Shown: positions 1 through 63,094 of the stretch, piece after piece
Position numbering within the stretch: the stretch's first letter is position 1
Layout: each line of letters opens with the position of its first letter
NCBI RefSeq assembly: GCF_009914755.1
Contig: NC_060941.1
From: the human T2T-CHM13v2.0 reference genome, Homo sapiens
Direction: 5' to 3' (one strand)
Length of the DNA: 64,000 nt
The notes under the pieces: model-generated
Told to the model about the DNA's origin: nothing
The model's database searches: none
The model's input: only the letters and a program-made list of their open reading frames with translations
Position numbers and translations under genes: made by a program

Positions 1-311
1 CTAATACCCACCTTTTCTGTCTCTTGGGGTCACTCTAATGTCCATGGTGACACTTGTTATTATCTATTGCCAGGGGACCCACAATGTGAGGACCATGAGG
101 GAGGGGAGTTAGATCTTCCTGCCCCATGGTTGACAGTCCACCTCAACCATGGGGCAGAGCAGCCCCTCAAGGGGCTGAGCAGCACCATCTGTCTCAGACA
201 TCATCCAGGGTGTACCAGCAGGCACCCTAGAGAAGGAAGGGGGCCAGCTACAAGAGTCAAAAGCAACATGATTCAGTATGCAGCACAATCATTTTAAGAA
301 TCCTGATTCTG

Positions 312-947
<636 letters not shown>

Positions 948-1789
948 CTAGCAGTTGGAGATGCCAGACGTGAGTTATTGAACACATCTGCCGAGACCAG
1001 AGACCAGGACACGACATTTGTATCTACCAAATGAGTGCTGGCAGCTAGCTCTGCTCCCCTGGAACATCCTCTCAAAACCCTTTTGCCTTGACTATTACCT
1101 CATCTCTCTCCTGGCCTGCACTGATCCTTGGCCGACTCTAAGAAGTCACCCGTGGGGCCCTGGGGCAAGACAGGTCATGGTTCTGGGCACCAGCACTGCC
1201 ATCTGGCTGCTTCTTCTGGCCTCTCTTTGCTGGACTAGTGCCTGGCCCAATATCATGCCATCATGATCACGCTCAACTCGAGGGATATCATTTACTCCTT
1301 CAAGGGCAAGATTCTAGACCCCTCACTGCAGAGCCCTTCACTGGGGACACCCGGTCTTCTTTGCCTGCTTGGACATTGAGGGTGGAGGGAGGAAGGGGTT
1401 GTGGGCATCCATAGAAGCTGTGGGGGGCATCCAGAAATAAGGGAGAGAGGCATCTTCACTGCTGGCGGTGTGCGGGACCAATTCCAGGGATTGTCTGACT
1501 GCGCTCCCCCCCACCACCCCATAGGTAGCAGGGTCTGCTGGGCTTGGATGCCAGTGGGAAGAATGCGTTCTTCGAGAGTGAGTGGACCCTCCTCTGGGCT
1601 CACTGGAGGGGACGGGTCTGGAGCAGGCAGAGTGAGCCGCTGCTTGCGGGATCCGGGATGGAGCTCAGGAATGGAGCTCCACACTCTCCCAGCTGCCTGG
1701 CCCGGGACAAGCATTGGCCCTTTCTGGGCCTCCTCAGGAATCTCCAACCTCCGAGGCGATTCTAGTTTAAGCCTGATGAGGCAGACGTG

Positions 1790-2710
1790 CATCCGGGCGG
1801 ATGATTAGCCGGTGTGGGCGCGGCCTGGAGCGGGCCCAGGCTGGGGAGTGGCGGCTGCACGCGGTGACGACTGTGTGTTCGCTGAGTCAGGGCCCGGAGC
1901 GCTTCAGCACCGCGGCTTGGACAGCGCCCCGGGGCAAGCGGGTGGCGCTCTCCCTACAGGGACAAATGACCCCAGGGCCGGCATTTCTGACCTAGAGAAC
2001 GGGCCTGGATTGCTCTGGCGGGTTCTGAGCCTGGGGTTGGGGGCGGGTGGGGAGCGGACGAAGTGGGGGCGGCCTTTGGAGACGATGGCAATTTACCGCC
2101 TTAGGCGGGCAAGCGCACGAGTCCCGGGAACCCTAAACAGGTTGGGGTGCCCCTTGGGGTCTAGATGAGGCCCGGGCTTGCGATAAAGCGTGGCGGCGTC
2201 TAGACATAACGTCCCATCTCCTGAACCCGTCAAGGCCGGTGGCACCCAACCTGGCGGGCTCATCTAGGACCAGTCCACACCCAAGGCCCCAAGACCCAAA
2301 ACCTCCTGGGCTGGGTCTGCCTGGCTAGGGGCCCCTCATCCTGGGCTCTACTCTTTTGGCGCAGAGGCCATGTGGCAGGCCCCTGGTCTGCGCCCTGCTC
2401 AGCTTCCCCTCCCCACCCCGAAAAGTGGAGAGCCCCACGGCTTCCCCAGAAAAGCAGTCTGCTCCCCGCGCCCCAGCGCAGCTCGTTTACTATGGGTCAG
2501 GAGAGGAATCCCGCCTTTTTTCCGCAGCGAGGATGGCCTGGGCTCCTGCGCGAAGCGAGGCTCCGTCCTGGAGAGGCTCAGTGACCCGGCAGTGGCGCCG
2601 ATCCGGGTTAGCCAGGGCCGCGCTGGGACCCGCGGAGTCGCGTGATGCAAACGGGAAGGCGGGAGCAACCCAGCTCCTTCCCGGTGCTGCCTGGCTGCTG
2701 CATAAGCCGC
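1790..2710. promoter_or_regulatory. Orphan CpG island with split RE1, AP-1/ARE and CTCF-like motifs
   Basis: CpG-dense; TTCAGCACC-N7-GGACAGCGCC at 1903-1928; GCTGAGTCA at 1881-1889; CAAGCGGGTGGCGC at 1935-1948. Confidence 0.65.
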
Positions 2711-3672
2711 CCTTTCTTCCCTGACAAACACTGTCCAGATGGGCAACAGGTCCGTGTCTCCTTTGGCAGCCACTGTCTCCAGAAAGGCATTGGGCAGTTA
2801 AGGTGGTCAGAGCCCTCAGGTAAATCCTCCCTCTCCAGGAGTCAGCCCTTCCAGCTGCGGGAGGGCAGGTAGTGGGATGCGGGACCTTCGCAGGGCTGGG
2901 AGATGTCATCAACTTTTACCCTCACATGGGGAGAGTGGGAGTGCTGGGCCTGGCGGTCCTCTTACGTCCTTACTGTGCAGCTTGGGATTCTAGGTTGGAA
3001 GGAGTCACCCTACTGCTCAGTCAGCTCTATTTGCCACCTGCCCAAGAAGACCCATGGGAATGGAGGCTACAAGACACTCTAGGGCACAGTGACAAGGAGG
3101 GATTGATTCCAAGACTCCTTGGAAGAACCAGATCCCTGAGCTTCTCAACAAAACAAGGGGCCACCTCTGGTCTTTGCCCTCCAAAGGGGAAGGCAGGAAA
3201 ATTGTTAGAGGCAGATTGGCAGGAGGGGCCTGTGGAGTGTGCAGGGGGCCAGAGCCAGTTCCTAGAAGTTGAGCAAGGGGATATGGGCACCAATGCACAC
3301 AACTGTGCACTGGGGGCCTCTGTCTCCTATCCCCTGGTCCCAAGGATGTCATGATGGTTTGACCTGTCTTCTAGGACATTCTCTAACTAGGGCAGCAGCC
3401 ATGCCTGTTGACCTGGTGAAACAACTCCAGCCCTGGTACCCTGTGACATGACCCAGGAGGTGGTGACCATATGTGGTAAGTGAGTTGGGAAGCAGAGTGG
3501 AGGATGAAGAGGACCACCACAGGCGCCAAAACAGCAGTCTCAGTGCAGGGGACCGGGCTCTGGGAAGCAAGGGGCTGTGGTCCTCAGTGATGCTTCTCGG
3601 CTCCCAGCTAGAGCTGCAGGAAGTTGTGGACAAATTCAGCCAAGGACTCTGAAACTCAGGTGAAATAAATAA

Positions 3673-3715
<43 letters not shown>

Positions 3716-3758
3716 AAGGGAGGAAGACAGAGAGAGGCAGAGGCAGAGACAGAAAGAA
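3673..3758 (+). repeat. (GA)n purine-rich repeat
   Basis: Direct inspection. Confidence 0.9.
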
Positions 3759-3869
3759 AGAATTTCAAAAGATGCAGGCGAATCAGCCCTCCTTCTGCCC
3801 CCTGAGCCTGTGTCCTGGACTGAGTCTGAGATGGGAGGTGAGACGCTGCTGGGCCTCCCACCAATCTTA

Positions 3870-6270
<2,401 letters not shown>

Positions 6271-6754
6271 AAGAGAGAGATTGGAGTGGATAAGACCAAA
6301 GGCAAAAAAAATCCAAGGAGAATGAGCAAAATACAATAGGTTGAGGACCTAGAAAGGGTCTCTGAGAACAGAGAAGGGTCAGATTGAAGAAAGACAGGCT
6401 TGAAAAAACTTGGGAAGCAATCAGATGTGAGAAGTGAAGGAAAGGGGTCTAACCAGGGAGTTGGTGAGGACAGCTACCAATAACTGAAAACTTACTAACA
6501 GCCAGGCACTTATTCATAGTGTCTCGTTTAATTCTTGCAAAAAAGCCTGTGACAGTGGTATTATTTCCACTTACTGATGAGGAAACAAAGGCTTCAGGGA
6601 ATAAAGAAACTGGTCGAAGCTCCACAGCTAGAAAGTGTCAGAGACAGACTGTGAACCCAGGTCTAACTCTAAGGCTGTGTTACACACTAGGAAGTAGGGA
6701 GGATGAGGAGAATAGAGAGGAGAGCGAACCCCAAATGTGGACAGATGGTTCTAG

Positions 6755-7730
6755 TGAAGCAGGGTATTTCCCTGACCGCTTCGCGGGATTTGCAACAGGA
6801 GTGCCTCATTTACTCAGCCGGCAGCTCTCAACATCCCGTGGGAGGGAATGCATGAGTGAATGAGGCAGGAACTGGAGTGCACAAGTGCTGGAACCAGCTG
6901 GCCACTTCGGTGCTGGCAGGAGCGATCTTCACTCACTTGGACCACCCCTTGCAGGAGGGAGCACACAGGTGAGTGGGTGCAGGATCTGGGGAGAGTGCTT
7001 TTGGGCGCCGGCAGGAGCAAACTCTGTGTGGGCTCCACAGCAGCATCTAGGCAGGAGGGTTCCTGTGGCCCCTGAAGCCCCAGAGGGCGTGTTACGGTGT
7101 TCTTTTAGCTCTTCTGTCCATGGATGGCTTAAGCATTAACAGCTCAGTGGACCCTCTGCCTTTTCACATGAGGCGGCTGCCTTCCACCAGCGAGGGCAAA
7201 GGGCCAGTGTGACAGCCTTTTGTATCTGCACTCGTAGCTCCCAGGCTCTAGTCCAGCATCCAGGAAAAATGAAGTTGCATGAATGAATTGAAGGATGGTA
7301 AATGCGGGGATTTTACGGCTGATTAAAGTGGCCCTCAGTGGCTCTCAGTGGGAATGGGAGCTGAAAAGGGGTCAGGGGGGTGTAAGTGATCCTCCCCTGA
7401 AGTCCGGCCATCTCCAGCTGATTCTTCTCCAAAGTTACGCTGTCAGACCGTCCCTCTGAAGTCAAGCCATTTCTCTCTGACATTCAGCCAGAGTGCCTGA
7501 TGTCCAGCTCCTTCTTTCTGATGGCTGAGTCTGGGGTCTTTATAGGGACAGGATGGGGTGGAGCAGGGCCATGTGTAGTTTAGGAAAAGGCAACATTTGA
7601 GCAGGAAAACATCGATAGAAGTTCTCACTTTGGGTCTCAGGCTTTTTGGCTTGAGTCGGGGGGGCTTCACCGGGGACCCCCCCGCCAACCCCGTGTCTGC
7701 CTAGAATTTCTCGGCCTCCTGTAGCTATCA
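6755..7730 (-). mobile_element. 3' LTR of provirus
   Basis: TG..CA ends; minus strand starts TGATAGCTACAGGAGGCCGAGAAATTCTAGGCAGAC; preceded by PPT AGAGGGGGAAA. Confidence 0.92.
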
Positions 7731-8269
7731 TTTCCCCCCTCTGAAGATGCACATCTAACTGCTGTTAGGATACAATGACCGATCTAAGCTGCTTCCTGCA
7801 GAGAGGGGGCATTGTTTTGGGGAGAAGAGCAGTCAGATTCTTCCCAGAGGTCTACCTAAGGGTCCCCAGCAAAAGGGAGCCATCATCCAGGGCTCTGCTT
7901 GCCTTGACCATTTGGAGTTTGATGGTCTCTAGGTGAGAAGAAACAAGTTCTACAAGGTTAAGTATGCATGAATCAAATATGTGTATTATACAAAAAGGGG
8001 TTAAAAGGAAAGAATCTAGTGGCAAAGTTTACAGAAATAAGAAGTAAAATATACAAATTATTCTGAAAACAACATTATATCCTGTGGTATAGAACAGAGC
8101 AAAGGTAAGAACAGCAAGCATAGCCAAGACTTTTAAGGAAGATATCCATGGAAGGTTAATTATTAACACTTATCTTTTGTGATTCTTAGCTTGAGGTCCC
8201 TGATCTCTTCACATTGGTACTTTGAGTGCTCTTCTGGGTTAATGGAGGTAACTCCATTAGCTTCCTAGG

Positions 8270-9860
8270 CCCTTACTAGGGTATAATGAATCCAAGAATC
8301 TATTCCAGTGACCTTCACTGCCATAGGAGTAGAAAGAAGTACAGTGTAAGGTCCCTCCCAATCTGGGCTTATAGAGGGACAAAGGGAAGGAAGTACCTTT
8401 ACCAGTACTAGGTCCCCAGGGTTGAATAGAGGTGGTCCTGGTTCATGGGATTGTGCCTCTCTGACAGTTGTTTCAGTTCCTGTTGGAAATGGGCCAAAGA
8501 AGTGATATGTTTAACCAAATCAAAGGTTTCTTGGTCTAGCAAGAAATCATTGGTGAGAAAAGGCCATCCATACATCATTTCAAAGGGATTCAAACCTAGC
8601 CTTGAAGGGGTGTTTCTAATACATAGTAGAGATATGGGCAGAAGGGTAGTCCAGGGGAGGTGAGTCTCCTGAGGTGTCTTTTGATAATATCATTTGTCTT
8701 TTCTACCTTTCCTAAGAATTGTGGTCTCCAAGCACAATGAAGAACCATCTTCATTGTACTGTATGCCTAGTGCCTTTGAGATCCCCTGGGTGACAGCCGC
8801 ATTGAACAAGGGGCCATTATCACTCTGGAGGTACTTAGGGAGTCCAAAGCGAGGAATTATCTCATTAATTAGTAAACCTTACATCCTCTGTTAGCCAGAA
8901 AATTAAGAAGAGCCTTACTGCCCTCCTGAGAGATTTTTTTAGTTAGAGTGCAGAGGAGAATGTCATCTACATATTGTAAAACTTTCACCTGAGGATAAAG
9001 GAACTTGGAGAAGTCTCTTGACCGTGCCTGCCCAAAAAAGTGGGGGCTGTTTCAGAATGCCTGAAGTAACACTATCCAGATTAACTGGGTGGTCTGGTTA
9101 GAGGGATCCTCAAATGCAAACAAATACTGGGGGTTTATATAACAGTATGCAGAAGAAGCATACCATTATATCTTTAGGTCCAGGACTGTGAACCTTTTAG
9201 TTCCCTCAGGTATGTGAGCTAGCAAGGTATACAGATTGGGAGCCACTGGGTGAATTGGAACCACAGCCTCATTAACAAGATGAAGGTCCTGAACTAGTCT
9301 CCATTCCCCTTTGGGTTTTTGTACCCCCAATATTGGGGTATTACAAGGGCTGTTGCAGAGTTTGAGGAGGTACTGCAACCTTAAGTTATCAATGATGGCT
9401 TCTGGTCTTTTCTTAACTTCTGGTTTCAGGGGCTATTGTGTCTGGTTCAGACTGGTATGGTGGTTGTGGCTCTGCCAATTTTCCCTTGAGTTACCCAAAC
9501 TTCTGGGTTAAAATCAGTCTCCACTAAGGGGAGACAAAGAGTTTGTCCTGGGGCCATCAGGATGGTGGTTCCTACACGGGCCACAATACCCCTACCCAAC
9601 AGAGTATTTGGCCTTTCAGGCACAATTAGAAAGGCACAGGTGAACAAGAGGTCTCCCCAACTACAACTAAGGGGTTGGAAAAAATATTGGGTTTAAGGCC
9701 TTCCTGGGATGCCCCTCACAGTCATGCTAAGAGAGGACAGGGGGCTTGAATTGGAGATGAAAACCGAGAGACCAGCCCCAGCGTCCAGAAGGAGGTCCAC
9801 TTTCCTCCCTTCCATATCCAGAATTGTAAATTCTGGGGCTCCTGGATGGTAATGGTGGTC
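8270..9860 (-). pseudogene. pol: ERV pro-pol remnant (protease, N-terminal RT, integrase core and C-terminus)
   Basis: LLDAGAGLS (protease); NTPILGVQKPKGEWRLVQDL, FTVLDLK and YVDD at 8962-8973 (RT); IIPRFGLPKYLQSDNGP, PFEMMYG and WEGPYTVLL (IN). RNase H is absent. Confidence 0.9.
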
Positions 9861-9899
9861 TGGACCACCGGAGCCAGGGAGAGGAGCCCCAGGACTTGT

Positions 9900-11360
9900 C
9901 AGTCTTGCTGGACCATTTGGGAGATTGGCTCTGGGCCTGGCGACCAGTGCCCCCGGGGACAGTCCACTTTCTAGTGGTCCCCATTGTACATTGGACAGGG
10001 TTGGGGTGGCTTCCTCATGTTGCCTGGGCAATCCTTCCTAAAATGCCCTGGCTTACCACATCTGTAGCAGTTAACAGGTGTAGCTTGGGGATTCTGGAGT
10101 TTGTGGGTTTGCATGGTGGCCATTAAAGCCTCTGCCTCTTGCCTGTGTCTCCTCTCTCTCTCTTCTGGGCCTCCCTATCTTATTACAAAAGACTGAGGTG
10201 GCCACTTTCAGGAGATTCTCTAAGGTACTATCTGGTCCCAGGGCCTGTTTCTGCAGCTTTCTCCTGATATCAGGGGCTGCCTGAGTAATAAATTTATCCT
10301 TTAGGATTACTTGTCCCTTGATGGAATCAGGAGCTAGTGAGGTGTGCTTTACCAAGACTCTATTAGCCTCTCCAGGAAGGCAGTAGGATGCTCATTGAAT
10401 CCCTGGTCCATCCTGGATAGCTTGGTATAGTTGAGAGGCTTAGTTCTAGTCCTACATAAGCCCTCTATTATGCCCACCTGAAACTGTCTCCTCTTACATT
10501 CTCCCGTCTTGTCATTGGGATCCCATTTAGGGTCATTCATTGGTACTGCTTCTCCTCCAGTTGGATAAAGTTTGACCCCCTCCCTGACACTATATGTGAC
10601 ACAAACCTCATCCCCAGATCTCTCTGTCACTTGCAGAGCAGACTGCTTCTCAGTGTTAGTCAGGTTTGATTCAAAAGTAACATAATGTCTTTCCAGGAGA
10701 GTTCAAATACTTGGGTTAAATTCTGGAAAGCCTTTATATATCTGTCAGGGTCATCTGAAAACTTGCCAAGATCCCCCTTAATTTGCTTTAAGTCCTGTAG
10801 AGAGAAGGGGGACCTGGACCAGGGGGCCAAATTCACCAAGCATCTGATGGAGGGCAGGAATGAGACTGGGGCTTGTCTAGGGTGAGGAGTTCTAGGAGGG
10901 GCCAAGTGAGAGAAAAACTGGGTAGGCAGGATGGGGTGGACCCAGAGGAGCAGGGCCAGTGGGAGCTGGCTCCCTTGCTGGAGGTGCCTCTGGAGTTCAT
11001 TTCTTTAGTTCTCTGGTATTGTTCTCTGAGATGGCAAACAAGAGGTCTGGAGCAATCCTACACTGTCAGCAAAGGTCTGGATTGCCCTGCAAGGTAAAGA
11101 AGGCCTGCACATATGGAGCCTCAGACCATTTGCCCTCACATTTACAGAAAAGGTCCACCTGCAGGATGGTTATCGAAATTAATGGTTCCTTCCTGAGGCC
11201 ACGCCAGTCCTTCCTACAGATCATAATTTGGCCAAACCTTTGTGCAAAGGGCTATGAGGTGTTTTCCCTCTAGAGTCTGAGGGTTAAAGCAGTCCCAGTG
11301 ATTCAGGATACACTCCAGAGGCGTATAGACTGAGGATGGTGAAAGTAGTTGGTGCCCATT
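9900..11360 (-). pseudogene. gag: ERV gag remnant
   Basis: MGTN start at 11360; PFSLQDLKQIKGDLGKFSDDPDRYI; KDKFITQAAPDIRRKLQK; zinc knuckle CYRCGKPGHFRKDC at 10028-10069; multiple frameshifts. Confidence 0.9.
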
Positions 11361-11769
11361 CTGAAAGAGAGGGAAATAGGCATCGCTCATTTTCTTTCCC
11401 TCTTTCCCCAAGAGAAAACAGGTGTCCTCCTTTTCTCTTCTATATGTTTATCCCCGAGTTCTGGCAACCTTAGATGGACACCATCCATAGGTGCCATTGT
11501 GGCCTGTACCCGTGAAGCAGGGAGGGCCTAGAGAATAGGAATTATCTGCACTCACTTACGCCTCCATGCCCCCTACTGTCGGCAACCTTTGGGTTCCTTG
11601 GGCCTTATCTATGCCATGGAGTGTGGCCTCCTTCCATGAAGCAGGGGCTTAATTGGCAGGAATTAGTCCTGCCCATTGATACTGTGCCTGTTGCTTGGCT
11701 TTGAATCCCTCAGATCTGATTTTCCTTTCTAGGGCTTCAACCTGAAGTTTAGAATTGAGTTTGGGATTG

Positions 11770-12064
11770 GGCCAGGCACAGTGGCTCACGCCTGTAATCC
11801 CAACACTTTGGGAGGCCGAGGAGAGCAGATCAAGAGGTCAGGAGTTCGATACCAGCCTGGCCAACATAGTGAAACCCCATCTCTACTAAAACTACAAAAA
11901 TTAGCTGGGCGTGGTGGCGGGCGCCTGTAGTCGTAGCTACTCCGGAGGCTGAGGCAGGAGAATTGCTTGAACTAGGAGGCAGAAGTTGCAATGAGCCAAG
12001 ATTGTGCCACTGCTCTCCAGGCTGGGAAACAGAGCAAGACTCCATCTCAAGAAAAAAAAAAAAA
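11770..12064 (+). mobile_element. Alu inserted in the ERV leader
   Basis: TSD TGAGTTTGGGAT on both sides. Confidence 0.95.
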
Positions 12065-13134
12065 TGAGTTTGGGATGAAAAGGTGTCTCGGGGGTGCATG
12101 GATTCATTTAGATTAAGTCCCAGGCAGGCCTTGCCAAATTTGCAGTTATTAGCCAGTGGGCTCGCTCCTCCACTGCTTTTCTATCATAAGCAGAGTGCTG
12201 AGGTAGGAAAAGAACCTCCTCGCATAGAAAAGGAAAGAGGGAAAAAACAAAACAGCTTAAGAGGGGGAAGAACCTCTTGCTCTCTGTAAATGGGTTCCTT
12301 TAATCACTATATCCTTCCTCTGGTTTGGACGGAGCTGGACCCCTCGGCTGTCTGGGGGAGGAAAGACTCTGTGGGCATGTGGAAGGAGGGGATGGTGAGT
12401 GGGAAATGCTGGCCAACTGGCTGCATTGGGCCCCTGGCCCCCAAGACTGCCCTGGGGCCTGGGCAGCAGCCACAGTTCTCTCCCACCCTGCCCTTGGGCA
12501 CTTCATGTGCATGCTGTGGACACGCCCAGGTGCCGTAGCTGGGAGGGAAGGGTGAGGAGGGGAACAGCCACGTGCTGCACACCTTTGTGGCTGTTGGGGT
12601 TGGGCGTGGGGGTCGCACCTCTAAGAACAAATGGAAGTCACATTGTTCTGAATTGCATATCTGGTGGCTGAGCCAAATGCTCATTCTACCTAGTAACATT
12701 TCTGCAGTTTGCAGCAAAACCCTTATCATTATAAAGGGAGAGAGAGGAGCCATTTTTAACCATGAAAGAAGAAAGGGAAAGATACCATAGAAAGGTCCAG
12801 GGGTGTTGGTCAACGCCTTAAGTGCTATCGGGGATGGGATCCAGTTTAGGGGCCTTCTGGCAACACCAAGGAGTGGCCTCCTCCAGATGCCTTCAGTTGC
12901 CCCAGGACTTTATTCTGGTCCCACCCGATGGCTAGACCTCTTTGAAGGGAAACAGAGCCAACATTCCTTTCACCTGAAACAAAGAGATAGGTGGCAGGAT
13001 TGCATCCTGTCCTCTGCAAATGGCATAGCTCAGAGGAAAGTCTGAGGACAAGAAGTCTTAGGAAAAAAGTGAAGAGACAGATATGGCAGATCTGCATTTA
13101 TTTGCCCTTCTGAGAAATCCTGGATAGGCCCCGT

Positions 13135-14106
13135 GGAAGCAGGCTATTTCCCTGACCCCTTCAAGGGACTTGCAACAAGGGTGCCTCATTTACTCAGCCT
13201 GCAGCTCTCAACTCCTCACAGGAGGGAGTGTGGGAGTGAATGAGACAGGAACTGGAGTGCATGAGTGCTGGAACCAGCTGGCCACCTTGGCACTGGCAGC
13301 AGCAAACTCCACTCACTCAGACTGGCTGTATTGCACCACTCACAGGAGGGAGCGTGCAGGTGAGCAGGTGCAGGAGCCAGCATGAGCACTTTTAGGCACT
13401 GGCAGTAGCGAATGCTGTGCAGGTCCCAGGCAGCATCTAGGGTGGGGGTGCCTGTGACCCCTGAAGCCCCAGAGGGCGTGTTACATTGCTCACTTAGCTC
13501 TGCCATCCGCAGACAGCTTAAGTGTTAACAGCTCAGTGGGCCCTCTGCCTTTTCATGTGGGATGGCTGCCTTCCACTAGTGAGGGCAAAGGGCCAGTGTG
13601 ACAGCCTTTTGTATCCACACTTGTGGCCCCCAAGCTCTTGTCCAGCATCCAGAAAAAATGAGGTCACACAAATGAATTGAAGGATGGTGAATGTGGAGGA
13701 TTTTATTGCTGATGAAAGTGGCTCTCAGAGGGAAGGGAGGTTGAAAAGGGGCCAGGGAATGTAGGTAATCTTCCCCTGAGGTCCAGCAGTCTCTGGCCAG
13801 ATTCTTCTTTGAAGTTACACTGTCAAGCTGTCCCTCTGAAGTCAAGCTGGTTCTCTCTGACTTTGGCCGTAGTCCCCAACATGCAGCTGCTTCTCCTCTC
13901 TACCGGCTGAGTCTGGGGTCTTTATAGGCACAGGATGGGGCAGGGCAGGACCATGGTAGTTTAGGAAAAGGCAACATTCAAGCAGGAAAATGGGGATATA
14001 AGTTCTCACTTTGGGCTGTGGTCTCAGGCTTTTTGGCTTGAGGGTGGGGCTTCACCAGGGATCCACCCCTCTCTGCCTAGAATTTCTCTGCCTCTTGTCA
14101 CTATCA
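13135..14106 (-). mobile_element. 5' LTR of provirus
   Basis: Diverged direct repeat of 6755-7730; minus strand starts TGATAGTGACAAGAGGCAGAGAAATTCTAGGCAGAG; followed by PBS. Confidence 0.92.

Positions 14107-24436: not shown

Positions 24437-33157
<8,721 letters not shown>

Positions 33158-34003: not shown

Positions 34004-63094
<29,091 letters not shown>

What the first reader, a model, noticed from the sequence alone, without database searches (positions are those of the whole stretch)
2754..2901. 148-bp non-coding block far better conserved than the flanking pseudo-exons
2754-2901 aligns without gaps to the reverse complement of 39523-39670 (MYO19 intron) with 14 mismatches by my count (134/148). 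Adjacent homologous intron and exon sequence is much more diverged and gapped. The block contains CAG|GTAAAT (donor-like, 2820) and a weak CTCF-like CTGCGGGAGGGCAG, both intact in each copy. It has one of two explanations: purifying selection on an unrecognised regulatory element or exon in both copies, or a later gene-conversion tract between inverted repeats 37 kb apart.
Basis: partly seen in the sequence, partly recalled or inferred. Interest (0 to 1): 0.75.

Follow-up and report, generated by a model that had tools for sequence, protein, structure and literature searches.

The report
Well-kept patch in old MYO19 duplicate
A 148-base stretch upstream of ZNHIT3 is much more similar to a piece of a MYO19 intron and alternative exon than the old, decayed duplication around it, most likely because the two copies were re-matched by a later DNA repair event, although shared function is not excluded.

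Summary
Window 2754-2901 (+) matches the reverse complement of 39523-39670 at 134/148 with no gap. It is the first 148 bp of an old inverted partial copy of the MYO19 3' end (2754-5424 vs 39670-33167). The rest of that copy is about 71-76% identical at aligned columns and full of gaps.

The T2T genome holds only these two copies, so the block is not an interspersed repeat.

In MYO19 the block covers the 3' part of an annotated alternative exon, its CAG|GT donor and 82 nt of intron. That exon puts a stop in frame. In the other copy the block abuts an unannotated CpG island.

The 14 mismatches are evenly spread and look neutral. The identity step on the 3' side lies exactly at a small retro-insert in the MYO19 copy.

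No Rfam match, no stable fold and no CTCF core were found.

- Later conversion or template-switch patch followed by drift: about 0.5.
- Selection on both copies: about 0.3.

A cross-species tree, which cannot be built with these tools, would decide. Interest is modest.

The parts
2754..2901 (+). Copy A of the 148-bp block. 2754-2819 corresponds to the 3' part of the MYO19 alternative exon. The GT of the donor-like CAG|GTAAAT is at 2820-2821. 2820-2901 corresponds to intron.
   Evidence: 134/148 identical to copy B with no gap. Donor 9-mer identical. CpG o/e 0.22.
39523..39670 (-). Copy B of the block, inside MYO19. 39670-39612 is annotated alternative exon (hub table). The CAG|GT donor is at 39607-39603. 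The rest is intron.
   Evidence: Only these two copies in the genome.
39605..39714 (-). MYO19 alternative exon, annotated 39612-39714. A polypyrimidine tract and AG (39716-39715) precede it. The nearest GT donor follows 39605. Inclusion puts TGA in frame after 6 codons.
   Evidence: Hub gene table. Sequence and translation (103 or 110 nt, stop in both versions).
39452..39532 (-). A 57-bp AT-rich insert (39520-39464) in copy B only. Its reverse complement ends in an A-rich tail. It is bracketed by a perfect 12-bp direct repeat (39532-39521 and 39463-39452), which is the form of a short retroposed piece with target-site duplication. It sits exactly at the 3' edge of the block.
   Evidence: Absent from copy A.
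2902..5424 (+). Rest of the old inverted partial copy of the MYO19 3' end and the ZNHIT3/MYO19 3' overlap. It is colinear with 39451-33167 (-), heavily diverged and gapped, and includes a decayed copy of the last MYO19 coding exon at 4342-4479.
   Evidence: Colinear HSPs. tblastn gives 48.7% over 39 aa, E 2e-4, with a stop inside. Identity profile.
1650..2753 (.). CpG-island-like stretch directly upstream of copy A, with no detectable homology to MYO19 and no gene in the hub table. GC is 0.62-0.69 and CpG o/e mostly 0.6-0.85, with a dip to 0.30-0.38 at about 2200-2500.
   Evidence: 200-bp windows. (2400-2753 has o/e 0.71, the block 0.22). No homology upstream of 2754. Unique in the genome.

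Best explanation
The block is a patch of secondary homogenisation inside a much older inverted duplication.

Shown. A segment holding the 3' end of MYO19 and the overlapping ZNHIT3 3' end was copied in inverted orientation about 37 kb away. It has since decayed to about 71-76% identity with many indels.

Inferred. Later, at roughly a third of the age of the duplication, one copy of the first 148 bp was rewritten from the other. The mechanism would be homology-guided repair of a break: a short non-allelic gene-conversion tract or a template switch during repair synthesis. The rewritten stretch could run only between two breaks in homology. One is the outer end of the duplicated segment at 2753/2754. 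The other is a small retro-insert present only in the MYO19 copy at 39522/39523. Since then both copies have drifted neutrally to 14 differences.

On this reading the shared splice donor and G-runs are passengers. The function of the MYO19 copy, as the end of a stop-bearing alternative exon, would belong to that copy alone.
For: (1) Block K2P is 0.10 with 0 gaps. Flank K2P is 0.30 with 43 gap events in 845 columns. Binomial P is 3e-6, and P(no gap) is 5e-4.

(2) Both edges are steps at structural breaks.
- No homology at all upstream of 2754, where CpG o/e also jumps from 0.71 to 0.22.
- On the 3' side, identity falls to 25/35 and 74/96 directly behind a 57-bp insert with a 12-bp target-site duplication in copy B (Fisher p 0.005 for each).

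(3) The mismatches look neutral.
- The longest perfect run, 30, is reached by 9783 of 20000 shuffles.
- Mismatch density is 6/66 in the exonic part and 8/82 in the intronic part.
- There are 9 transitions to 5 transversions.
- Three of the 14 are CpG-to-TpG/CpA changes, including one CpG that decayed separately in each copy.

(4) 148 bp is inside the estimated tract-length range for human non-allelic conversion: mean 250 bp, CI 63-1000 (bioRxiv 10.1101/135152, passages read).

(5) The copies lie in cis, inverted, 37 kb apart.

(6) The rest of copy A is clearly dead. There is a stop in the last-exon copy. By my reading of the and 23 alignments, the AG acceptor of the 38988-38822 exon is lost. 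No gene is listed there in the hub table.
Against: Homology-guided repair is strongly suppressed between diverged sequences.
- Non-allelic conversion slows as duplicates diverge, and models put its limit at a few per cent divergence.
- In human cells, Alu/Alu recombination falls with divergence up to 10% and shifts to end joining at 15-30% (PMC4356517, abstract).
- In yeast, 68-76% identity cuts break-induced replication 900- to 38,000-fold, two-ended conversion about 230,000-fold and template switching about 400-fold (PMC4215184, sections 6-8).

At the inferred time the flanks would already have been only about 76-83% identical (my arithmetic). Only 148 bp lay between the two heterologies.

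The order of the retro-insert and the event is unknown. If the insert came later, its position at the edge is a coincidence.

The block holds an annotated exon end and a consensus donor in MYO19, and it abuts a CpG island in copy A in the orientation of a first exon. That fits function.

Confidence: 0.5

Rival explanations
1. Purifying selection has held the block in both copies since the duplication. In MYO19 it would be the end of a stop-introducing alternative exon, its 5' splice site and downstream G-run splicing enhancers. In copy A the same donor module would serve as the first 5' splice site of an unannotated transcript driven by the CpG island directly upstream on the + strand.
For: Copy B overlaps an annotated alternative exon (hub table). 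It has a polypyrimidine tract with AG, a consensus CAG|GTAAAT donor and an in-frame TGA.

The donor 9-mer is identical in both copies.

Copy A starts at the 3' edge of a 1.1-kb CpG-island-like stretch, the usual place of a first donor.

There are no indels in 148 bp in either lineage.

None of the 8 intronic mismatches falls in the 18 G-run sites (P 0.14, not significant).

Classical conversion is disfavoured at this flank divergence.
Against: No transcript is listed at copy A in the hub table.

Mismatch density is the same in the exonic and intronic parts, and the mismatches are evenly spread. A donor needs about 9 nt, not 148.

The other MYO19-derived exons of copy A are decayed.

The identity step coincides with an insertion edge, which selection does not predict.

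The block in copy A is CpG-poor (o/e 0.22), unlike the island beside it (0.71).

No RNA family, stable fold or CTCF core was found.
Confidence: 0.3
2. Constraint acts in the MYO19 copy only, and copy A has been neutral. The low divergence and the lack of indels in copy A are then a chance outcome.
For: The 95% interval of the block's JC distance is 0.055-0.172. It touches a one-lineage neutral distance of about 0.15, half the flank K2P of 0.30.
Against: P(<=14 mismatches) is 0.033 at p = 0.15 and 0.003 at p = 0.18. At half the flank gap rate, the chance of no indel in 148 bp is about 0.02 (my arithmetic). Jointly this is about 1e-3 or less.
Confidence: 0.05
3. The block is a copy of an interspersed or ancient repeat family, and the likeness is that of two family members.
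For: The genome search scores only the best word-based candidates and skips very common words. A very old, highly diverged family could therefore be missed (tool text).
Against: There were 2 of 2 candidates genome-wide with copy A as query. No further copy appeared with 2.9 kb around A or 951 bp around B. The same tool returns 1362 candidates for a 604-bp repeat at 75-80% identity and finds a 57-nt match at 82%. The block is colinear and co-oriented with the flanking paralogy. A shared old repeat would not explain identity above the flanks.
Confidence: 0.03

Closest known systems
Non-allelic (interlocus) gene-conversion tracts between human duplicates (Harpak et al., bioRxiv 10.1101/135152; passages read)
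   Same: A short tract (148 bp against a mean of 250 bp, CI 63-1000) is markedly less diverged than the paralogous sequence around it. The copies lie in cis.
   Different: The described tracts lie in duplicates that are still similar, and the rate falls as the copies diverge. Here the flanks are only about 71-76% identical and the tract is boxed in by two heterologies. No species tree is available to show the event.
Template switching between diverged repeats during break repair (Anand et al., PMC4215184; abstract and sections 6-8 read)
   Same: This mechanism copies a short stretch from a 68-76% identical template. It tolerates divergence better than two-ended conversion (about 400-fold against about 230,000-fold reduction). 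It would give one abrupt junction.
   Different: It was shown in yeast with induced breaks. Nothing here shows a break, and the junction at 2753/2754 may simply be the old duplication edge.
Stop-introducing ('poison') alternative exons with conserved flanks (recalled general knowledge; no paper read)
   Same: Copy B is the end of an annotated alternative exon that puts TGA in frame. It has a consensus donor and G-runs downstream.
   Different: Conservation across species is untested. The second copy lies outside any annotated gene. The well-kept stretch starts after the stop codon and misses the exon's acceptor half.
Duplicated conserved non-coding elements kept in both paralogous loci (recalled; no paper read)
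   Same: Two old paralogous non-coding stretches remain far more alike than their surroundings.
   Different: Those elements accompany retained developmental paralogues. Here copy A is a decayed gene fragment.

Membership tests
Interspersed repeat | Many dispersed copies in the genome | tested here: not met
   Only the two copies at E <= 10 with copy A as query. No further copy with wider queries. Positive controls for the tool: 1362 candidates for window 7127-7730 and a 57-nt match at 82%.
Non-allelic gene-conversion tract | A discrete tract significantly less diverged than the flanking paralogous sequence | tested here: met
   K2P 0.10 against 0.30. Binomial P 3e-6. 27 of 20000 shuffles. 0 gaps against 43 gap events per 845 columns.
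Non-allelic gene-conversion tract | Tract length in the known range | tested here: met
   148 bp against a mean of 250 bp, CI 63-1000.
Non-allelic gene-conversion tract | Paralogues group by lineage, not by locus, in species that split before the event | not testable with these tools
   No other mammalian genome is held. The tool states that the genome 'has no relatives here'.
Non-allelic gene-conversion tract | High donor-acceptor similarity around the tract | tested here: not met
   Flanks are now 71-76% identical at aligned columns and would have been about 76-83% at the inferred time (my arithmetic). The literature expects a few per cent divergence at most. This lowers 'classical conversion', not 'templated patch'.
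Conserved non-coding element under purifying selection | Conservation of each copy across species above the neutral rate | not testable with these tools
   No comparative or population data are available here.
Conserved non-coding element under purifying selection | Uneven constraint centred on functional motifs | tested here: inconclusive
   Mismatches are evenly spread (9783 of 20000 shuffles reach the longest run). Density is 6/66 against 8/82. 0 of 8 intronic mismatches fall in G-runs, P 0.14. With 14 mismatches the power is low.
Structured RNA (Rfam family) | Match to a covariance model, or a fold more stable than shuffles | tested here: not met
   Best E-value is 0.67, far below gathering scores. 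0 matches at gathering score in the whole window. Fold z-scores are +1.18, +0.98, +0.63 and -1.45.
CTCF binding site | Match to the core motif (consensus recalled, not from a library) | tested here: not met
   No hit within either copy at up to 2 mismatches. The window has 21 hits against 20.25 expected. No ChIP data are available here.
Alternative exon with 5' splice site (copy B) | Annotated exon, AG acceptor, GT donor | tested here: met
   The hub table lists exon 39612-39714. AG is at 39716-39715 behind a pyrimidine tract. CAG|GTAAAT lies 7 nt past the annotated end. TGA is in frame. The annotated 3' end itself is not followed by GT.
Alternative or first exon with 5' splice site (copy A) | Evidence of transcription and splicing at 2819|2820 | not testable with these tools
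   The donor 9-mer is intact and a CpG island lies upstream. No transcript is listed in the hub table and no RNA data are available here.

The most novel reading that the evidence does not exclude
The block is a functional module kept in both copies for roughly the age of placental mammals: exon end, 5' splice site and G-rich downstream region. In MYO19 it would end a stop-bearing alternative exon that tunes MYO19 output. Upstream of ZNHIT3, the same module would have been taken over as the first splice donor of an unannotated transcript driven by a CpG island. This would be a rare case of a duplicated non-coding splice module under selection in a gene and in its otherwise dead fragment.
Probability: 0.3. 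Interest if true: 0.5.

Novelty: new member of a known kind. Interest (0 to 1): 0.3.

Why it matters
If the patch reading holds, it is a small natural example of homology-guided repair between copies that were already only about 80% alike. That bears on how long old duplicates stay exposed to conversion. It also warns that short high-identity islands in old paralogues need not be functional.

If the selection reading holds, it points to an unannotated promoter and first exon 22 kb upstream of ZNHIT3, and to a regulated stop-bearing exon in MYO19.

Either way the region borders the 17q12 recurrent deletion/duplication interval. Inverted paralogous sequence there is of some interest for rearrangement mapping. 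The finding is real but of modest weight, and public comparative tracks would settle it quickly.

Tried and rejected
- **Interspersed repeat:** rejected (control).
- **Known RNA family:** nothing found.
- **Stable RNA fold on either strand of either copy:** none; z-scores are +1.18, +0.98, +0.63 and -1.45.
- **CTCF core:** no hit in the block.
- **Coding exon in or beside copy A:** the reading frames into the donor are closed. Four ORFs of 91-166 aa around the island have no Pfam family at E <= 0.1.
- **Recent (primate-age) duplication with shared Alus:** joined two Alus of copy A to two Alus of copy B. The unique DNA between A's Alus matches the last MYO19 coding exon and 37030-36944, not the DNA between B's Alus. 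The Alus are therefore separate insertions.
- **Homology upstream of 2754:** none found with relaxed scoring.
- **Extension of the duplicate to 6423-6682 vs 29857-29585** (63%, E 1e-14): left open. Part of that stretch has weak matches elsewhere in the genome, and the B match did not reappear at E <= 0.001.
- **Family of the 57-bp insert:** one other genomic match only, so it is not classified.
- **Papers:** three searches turned up nothing about this duplicate or block, and I found nothing in print.
  - MYO19 + ZNHIT3 + duplication gave 26 papers, 15 listed. All 15 listed are copy-number or 17q12 deletion/duplication studies; I judged them from the listing only.
  - MYO19 + cryptic exon gave 2 papers. 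One was opened and proved irrelevant.
  - ZNHIT3 + TBC1D3 + breakpoint gave 0 papers.

Full report
**Observation.**
BLASTN of window 1-13500 against the rest finds 2754-2901 (+) matching 39670-39523 (-). The match has 148 columns, 14 mismatches and no gap, which is 90.5% identity at E 1e-53. The base-by-base listing gives 9 transitions and 5 transversions.

**Context: an old inverted partial duplicate.**
With relaxed scoring the homology continues colinearly on the 3' side only:

| Copy A (+) | Copy B (-) | Identity |
|---|---|---|
| 2973-3629 | 39334-38693 | 61.4% over 695 columns, gaps counted, E 1e-33 |
| 3753-3866 | 37266-37159 | 66% |
| 4268-4359 | 37030-36944 | 69% |
| 4365-4479 | 34133-34021 | 66% |
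| 5001-5098 | 33657-33563 | 63% |
| 5124-5424 | 33439-33167 | 64% |

I translated the window's 21 MYO19 coding exons and searched the protein against window 1-24000. It finds a decayed copy of the last coding exon at 4342-4458, with 48.7% identity over 39 aa, E 2e-4 and a stop inside.

Copy A is therefore the remnant of a genomic duplication, introns included, of the MYO19 3' end and the ZNHIT3/MYO19 3' overlap. It lies inverted about 37 kb away.

Nothing upstream of 2754 resembles MYO19.

Two Alus of copy A that joined to two Alus of copy B are not positional partners. No shared Alu dates the duplication as young.

A further match, 6423-6682 vs 29857-29585, is uncertain.

**How unusual is the block?**
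I made a gap-friendly global alignment and counted columns:

| Region | Matches | Mismatches | Gap columns | Identity | K2P |
|---|---|---|---|---|---|
| Block 2754-2901 | 134 | 14 | 0 | 90.5% | 0.10 |
| Flank 2902-3620 | 477 | 153 | 215 | 75.7% | 0.30 |

No 100-bp flank window exceeds 81%. That scoring flatters the flank; plain BLAST gives 71% for its best part.

- Binomial P is 3e-6.
- 27 of 20000 shuffles of all aligned columns reach 134 matches in a 148-column window.
- The flank has 43 gap events in 845 columns, so a gap-free run of 148 columns has P 5e-4.

The heterogeneity is real.

**Copy number.**
The window's own genome (3.1 Gb, 24 contigs) holds only these two copies of the block at E <= 10. 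Wider queries around A (2.9 kb) and B (951 bp) add nothing relevant. The tool does see true repeats. The 604-bp element at 7127-7730 gives 1362 first-look candidates at 75-80% identity, and an 86-nt query found a 57-nt match at 82%.

**What the two copies are.**
*Copy B.* The hub table lists 39612-39714 as an exon of other MYO19 transcripts. A pyrimidine tract and AG (39716-39715) precede it. The annotated 3' end is followed by CC, not GT. The consensus CAG|GT lies 7 nt further on. Joined to the upstream coding exon, the exon puts TGA in frame after six codons, whichever end is used (103 or 110 nt). The block begins 44 nt into this exon, behind the stop. It runs over the donor and 82 nt into the intron.

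*Copy A.* The block starts exactly where a CpG-island-like stretch ends. That stretch runs from about 1650 to 2753, with GC 0.62-0.69 and CpG o/e mostly 0.6-0.85. Positions 2400-2753 have o/e 0.71, while the block has 0.22 in both copies. The hub table has no gene there. The frames into the donor are closed, and four nearby ORFs have no Pfam family.

**Edges.**
- The 5' edge is the end of all detectable paralogy.
- The 3' edge lies exactly at a 57-bp AT-rich piece found only in copy B (39520-39464). Its reverse complement ends in an A-rich tail. It is bracketed by a perfect 12-bp direct repeat (39532-39521 and 39463-39452), the form of a short retroposed insert with target-site duplication.
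- Directly behind the insert the copies align again, but at 25/35 and 74/96. Fisher p is 0.005 for each against 134/148.

**Pattern inside the block.**
- The mismatches are evenly spread. The longest perfect run is 30, and 9783 of 20000 shuffles reach it.
- Density is equal in the exonic part (6/66) and the intronic part (8/82).
- Three of the 14 mismatches are CpG decay, by my reading of the triplets listed. One CpG was hit separately in each copy.
- None of the 8 intronic mismatches lies in the 18 G-run sites, but P is only 0.14.

**Other tests.**
- No Rfam match was found.
- No fold is more stable than the shuffles on either strand of either copy.
- A recalled CTCF core consensus with up to 2 mismatches hits neither copy, and its 21 hits in the window equal chance.

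**Explanation.**
I favour a secondary homogenising event followed by neutral drift, at about 0.5. One copy of the stretch between two breaks in homology would have been rewritten from the other by homology-guided break repair. The flat, neutral-looking mismatch pattern, the step-like edges at structural breaks and a length within the known tract range support this (mean 250 bp, CI 63-1000; bioRxiv 10.1101/135152).

With recalled primate neutral rates, a block distance of 0.10 would place the event at roughly 25-45 million years. The flank distance would place the duplication near or before the placental radiation. This dating is inference, not a result.

The main objection is mechanistic. Conversion slows as copies diverge. 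Alu/Alu recombination in human cells drops with divergence and gives way to end joining at 15-30% (PMC4356517, abstract). In yeast, 68-76% identity cuts break-induced replication 900- to 38,000-fold and two-ended conversion about 230,000-fold. Template switching is cut only about 400-fold (PMC4215184, sections 6-8). A one-ended or template-switch patch is therefore the more plausible form.

The break might have been linked to the neighbouring retro-insertion. That is speculation.

**Rivals.**
- *Selection on both copies, about 0.3.* It gains from the annotated exon and donor in MYO19 and from the CpG island beside copy A in first-exon geometry. It does not predict the edge coincidence or the even mismatch spread, and copy A has no listed transcript.
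- *Constraint in MYO19 alone plus chance, about 0.05.* This is unlikely.
- *Repeat family, about 0.03.*

**What is known.**
Three literature searches found nothing on this duplicate or block. The kinds of process invoked are well known. I file the block as a new member of a known kind.

**Verdict.**
The block is real, has exactly two copies and is statistically solid, but its cause cannot be fixed without other genomes. Interest is 0.3.

Noticed in passing
window 1650-2753: A 1.1-kb CpG-island-like stretch with no gene in the hub table. GC is 0.62-0.69 and CpG o/e mostly 0.6-0.85, with a dip at about 2200-2500. It is unique in the genome and ends sharply at the start of the MYO19-derived duplicate. 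It could be an unannotated promoter about 22 kb upstream of ZNHIT3.
   Followed up: partly
window 2754-5424 vs 39670-33167: An old inverted partial duplicate of the MYO19 3' end and the ZNHIT3/MYO19 3' overlap. It includes a decayed copy of the last MYO19 coding exon at 4342-4479 with an internal stop.
   Followed up: yes
window 39605-39714 (-): The annotated MYO19 alternative exon puts TGA in frame after six codons, so it would truncate the protein or mark the mRNA for decay. Its annotated 3' end (39612) is not at a GT; a consensus donor lies 7 nt downstream.
   Followed up: partly
window 39452-39532: A 57-bp AT-rich insert with an A-rich tail on the + strand and a perfect 12-bp target-site duplication. 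It is present in the MYO19 copy only. One other genomic match was found, on contig C9 at 82% over 57 nt.
   Followed up: partly
window 7127-7730 and 13516-14106: Two copies, in direct orientation and 80% alike, of a roughly 600-bp interspersed element with over a thousand first-look candidates in the genome. The second overlaps the last exon of lncRNA LOC105371749 (13677-14356). Observed only.
   Followed up: no
window 3673-3761: A GA-rich stretch that matches tandem arrays on contigs C2 (about 1.22 Mb) and C23 (about 0.27 Mb) at 74-85%.
   Followed up: no
window 28952-29075: The annotated 5S rRNA pseudogene RNA5SP439 does not reach the Rfam gathering score. The whole-window scan returned 0 matches.
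   Followed up: no
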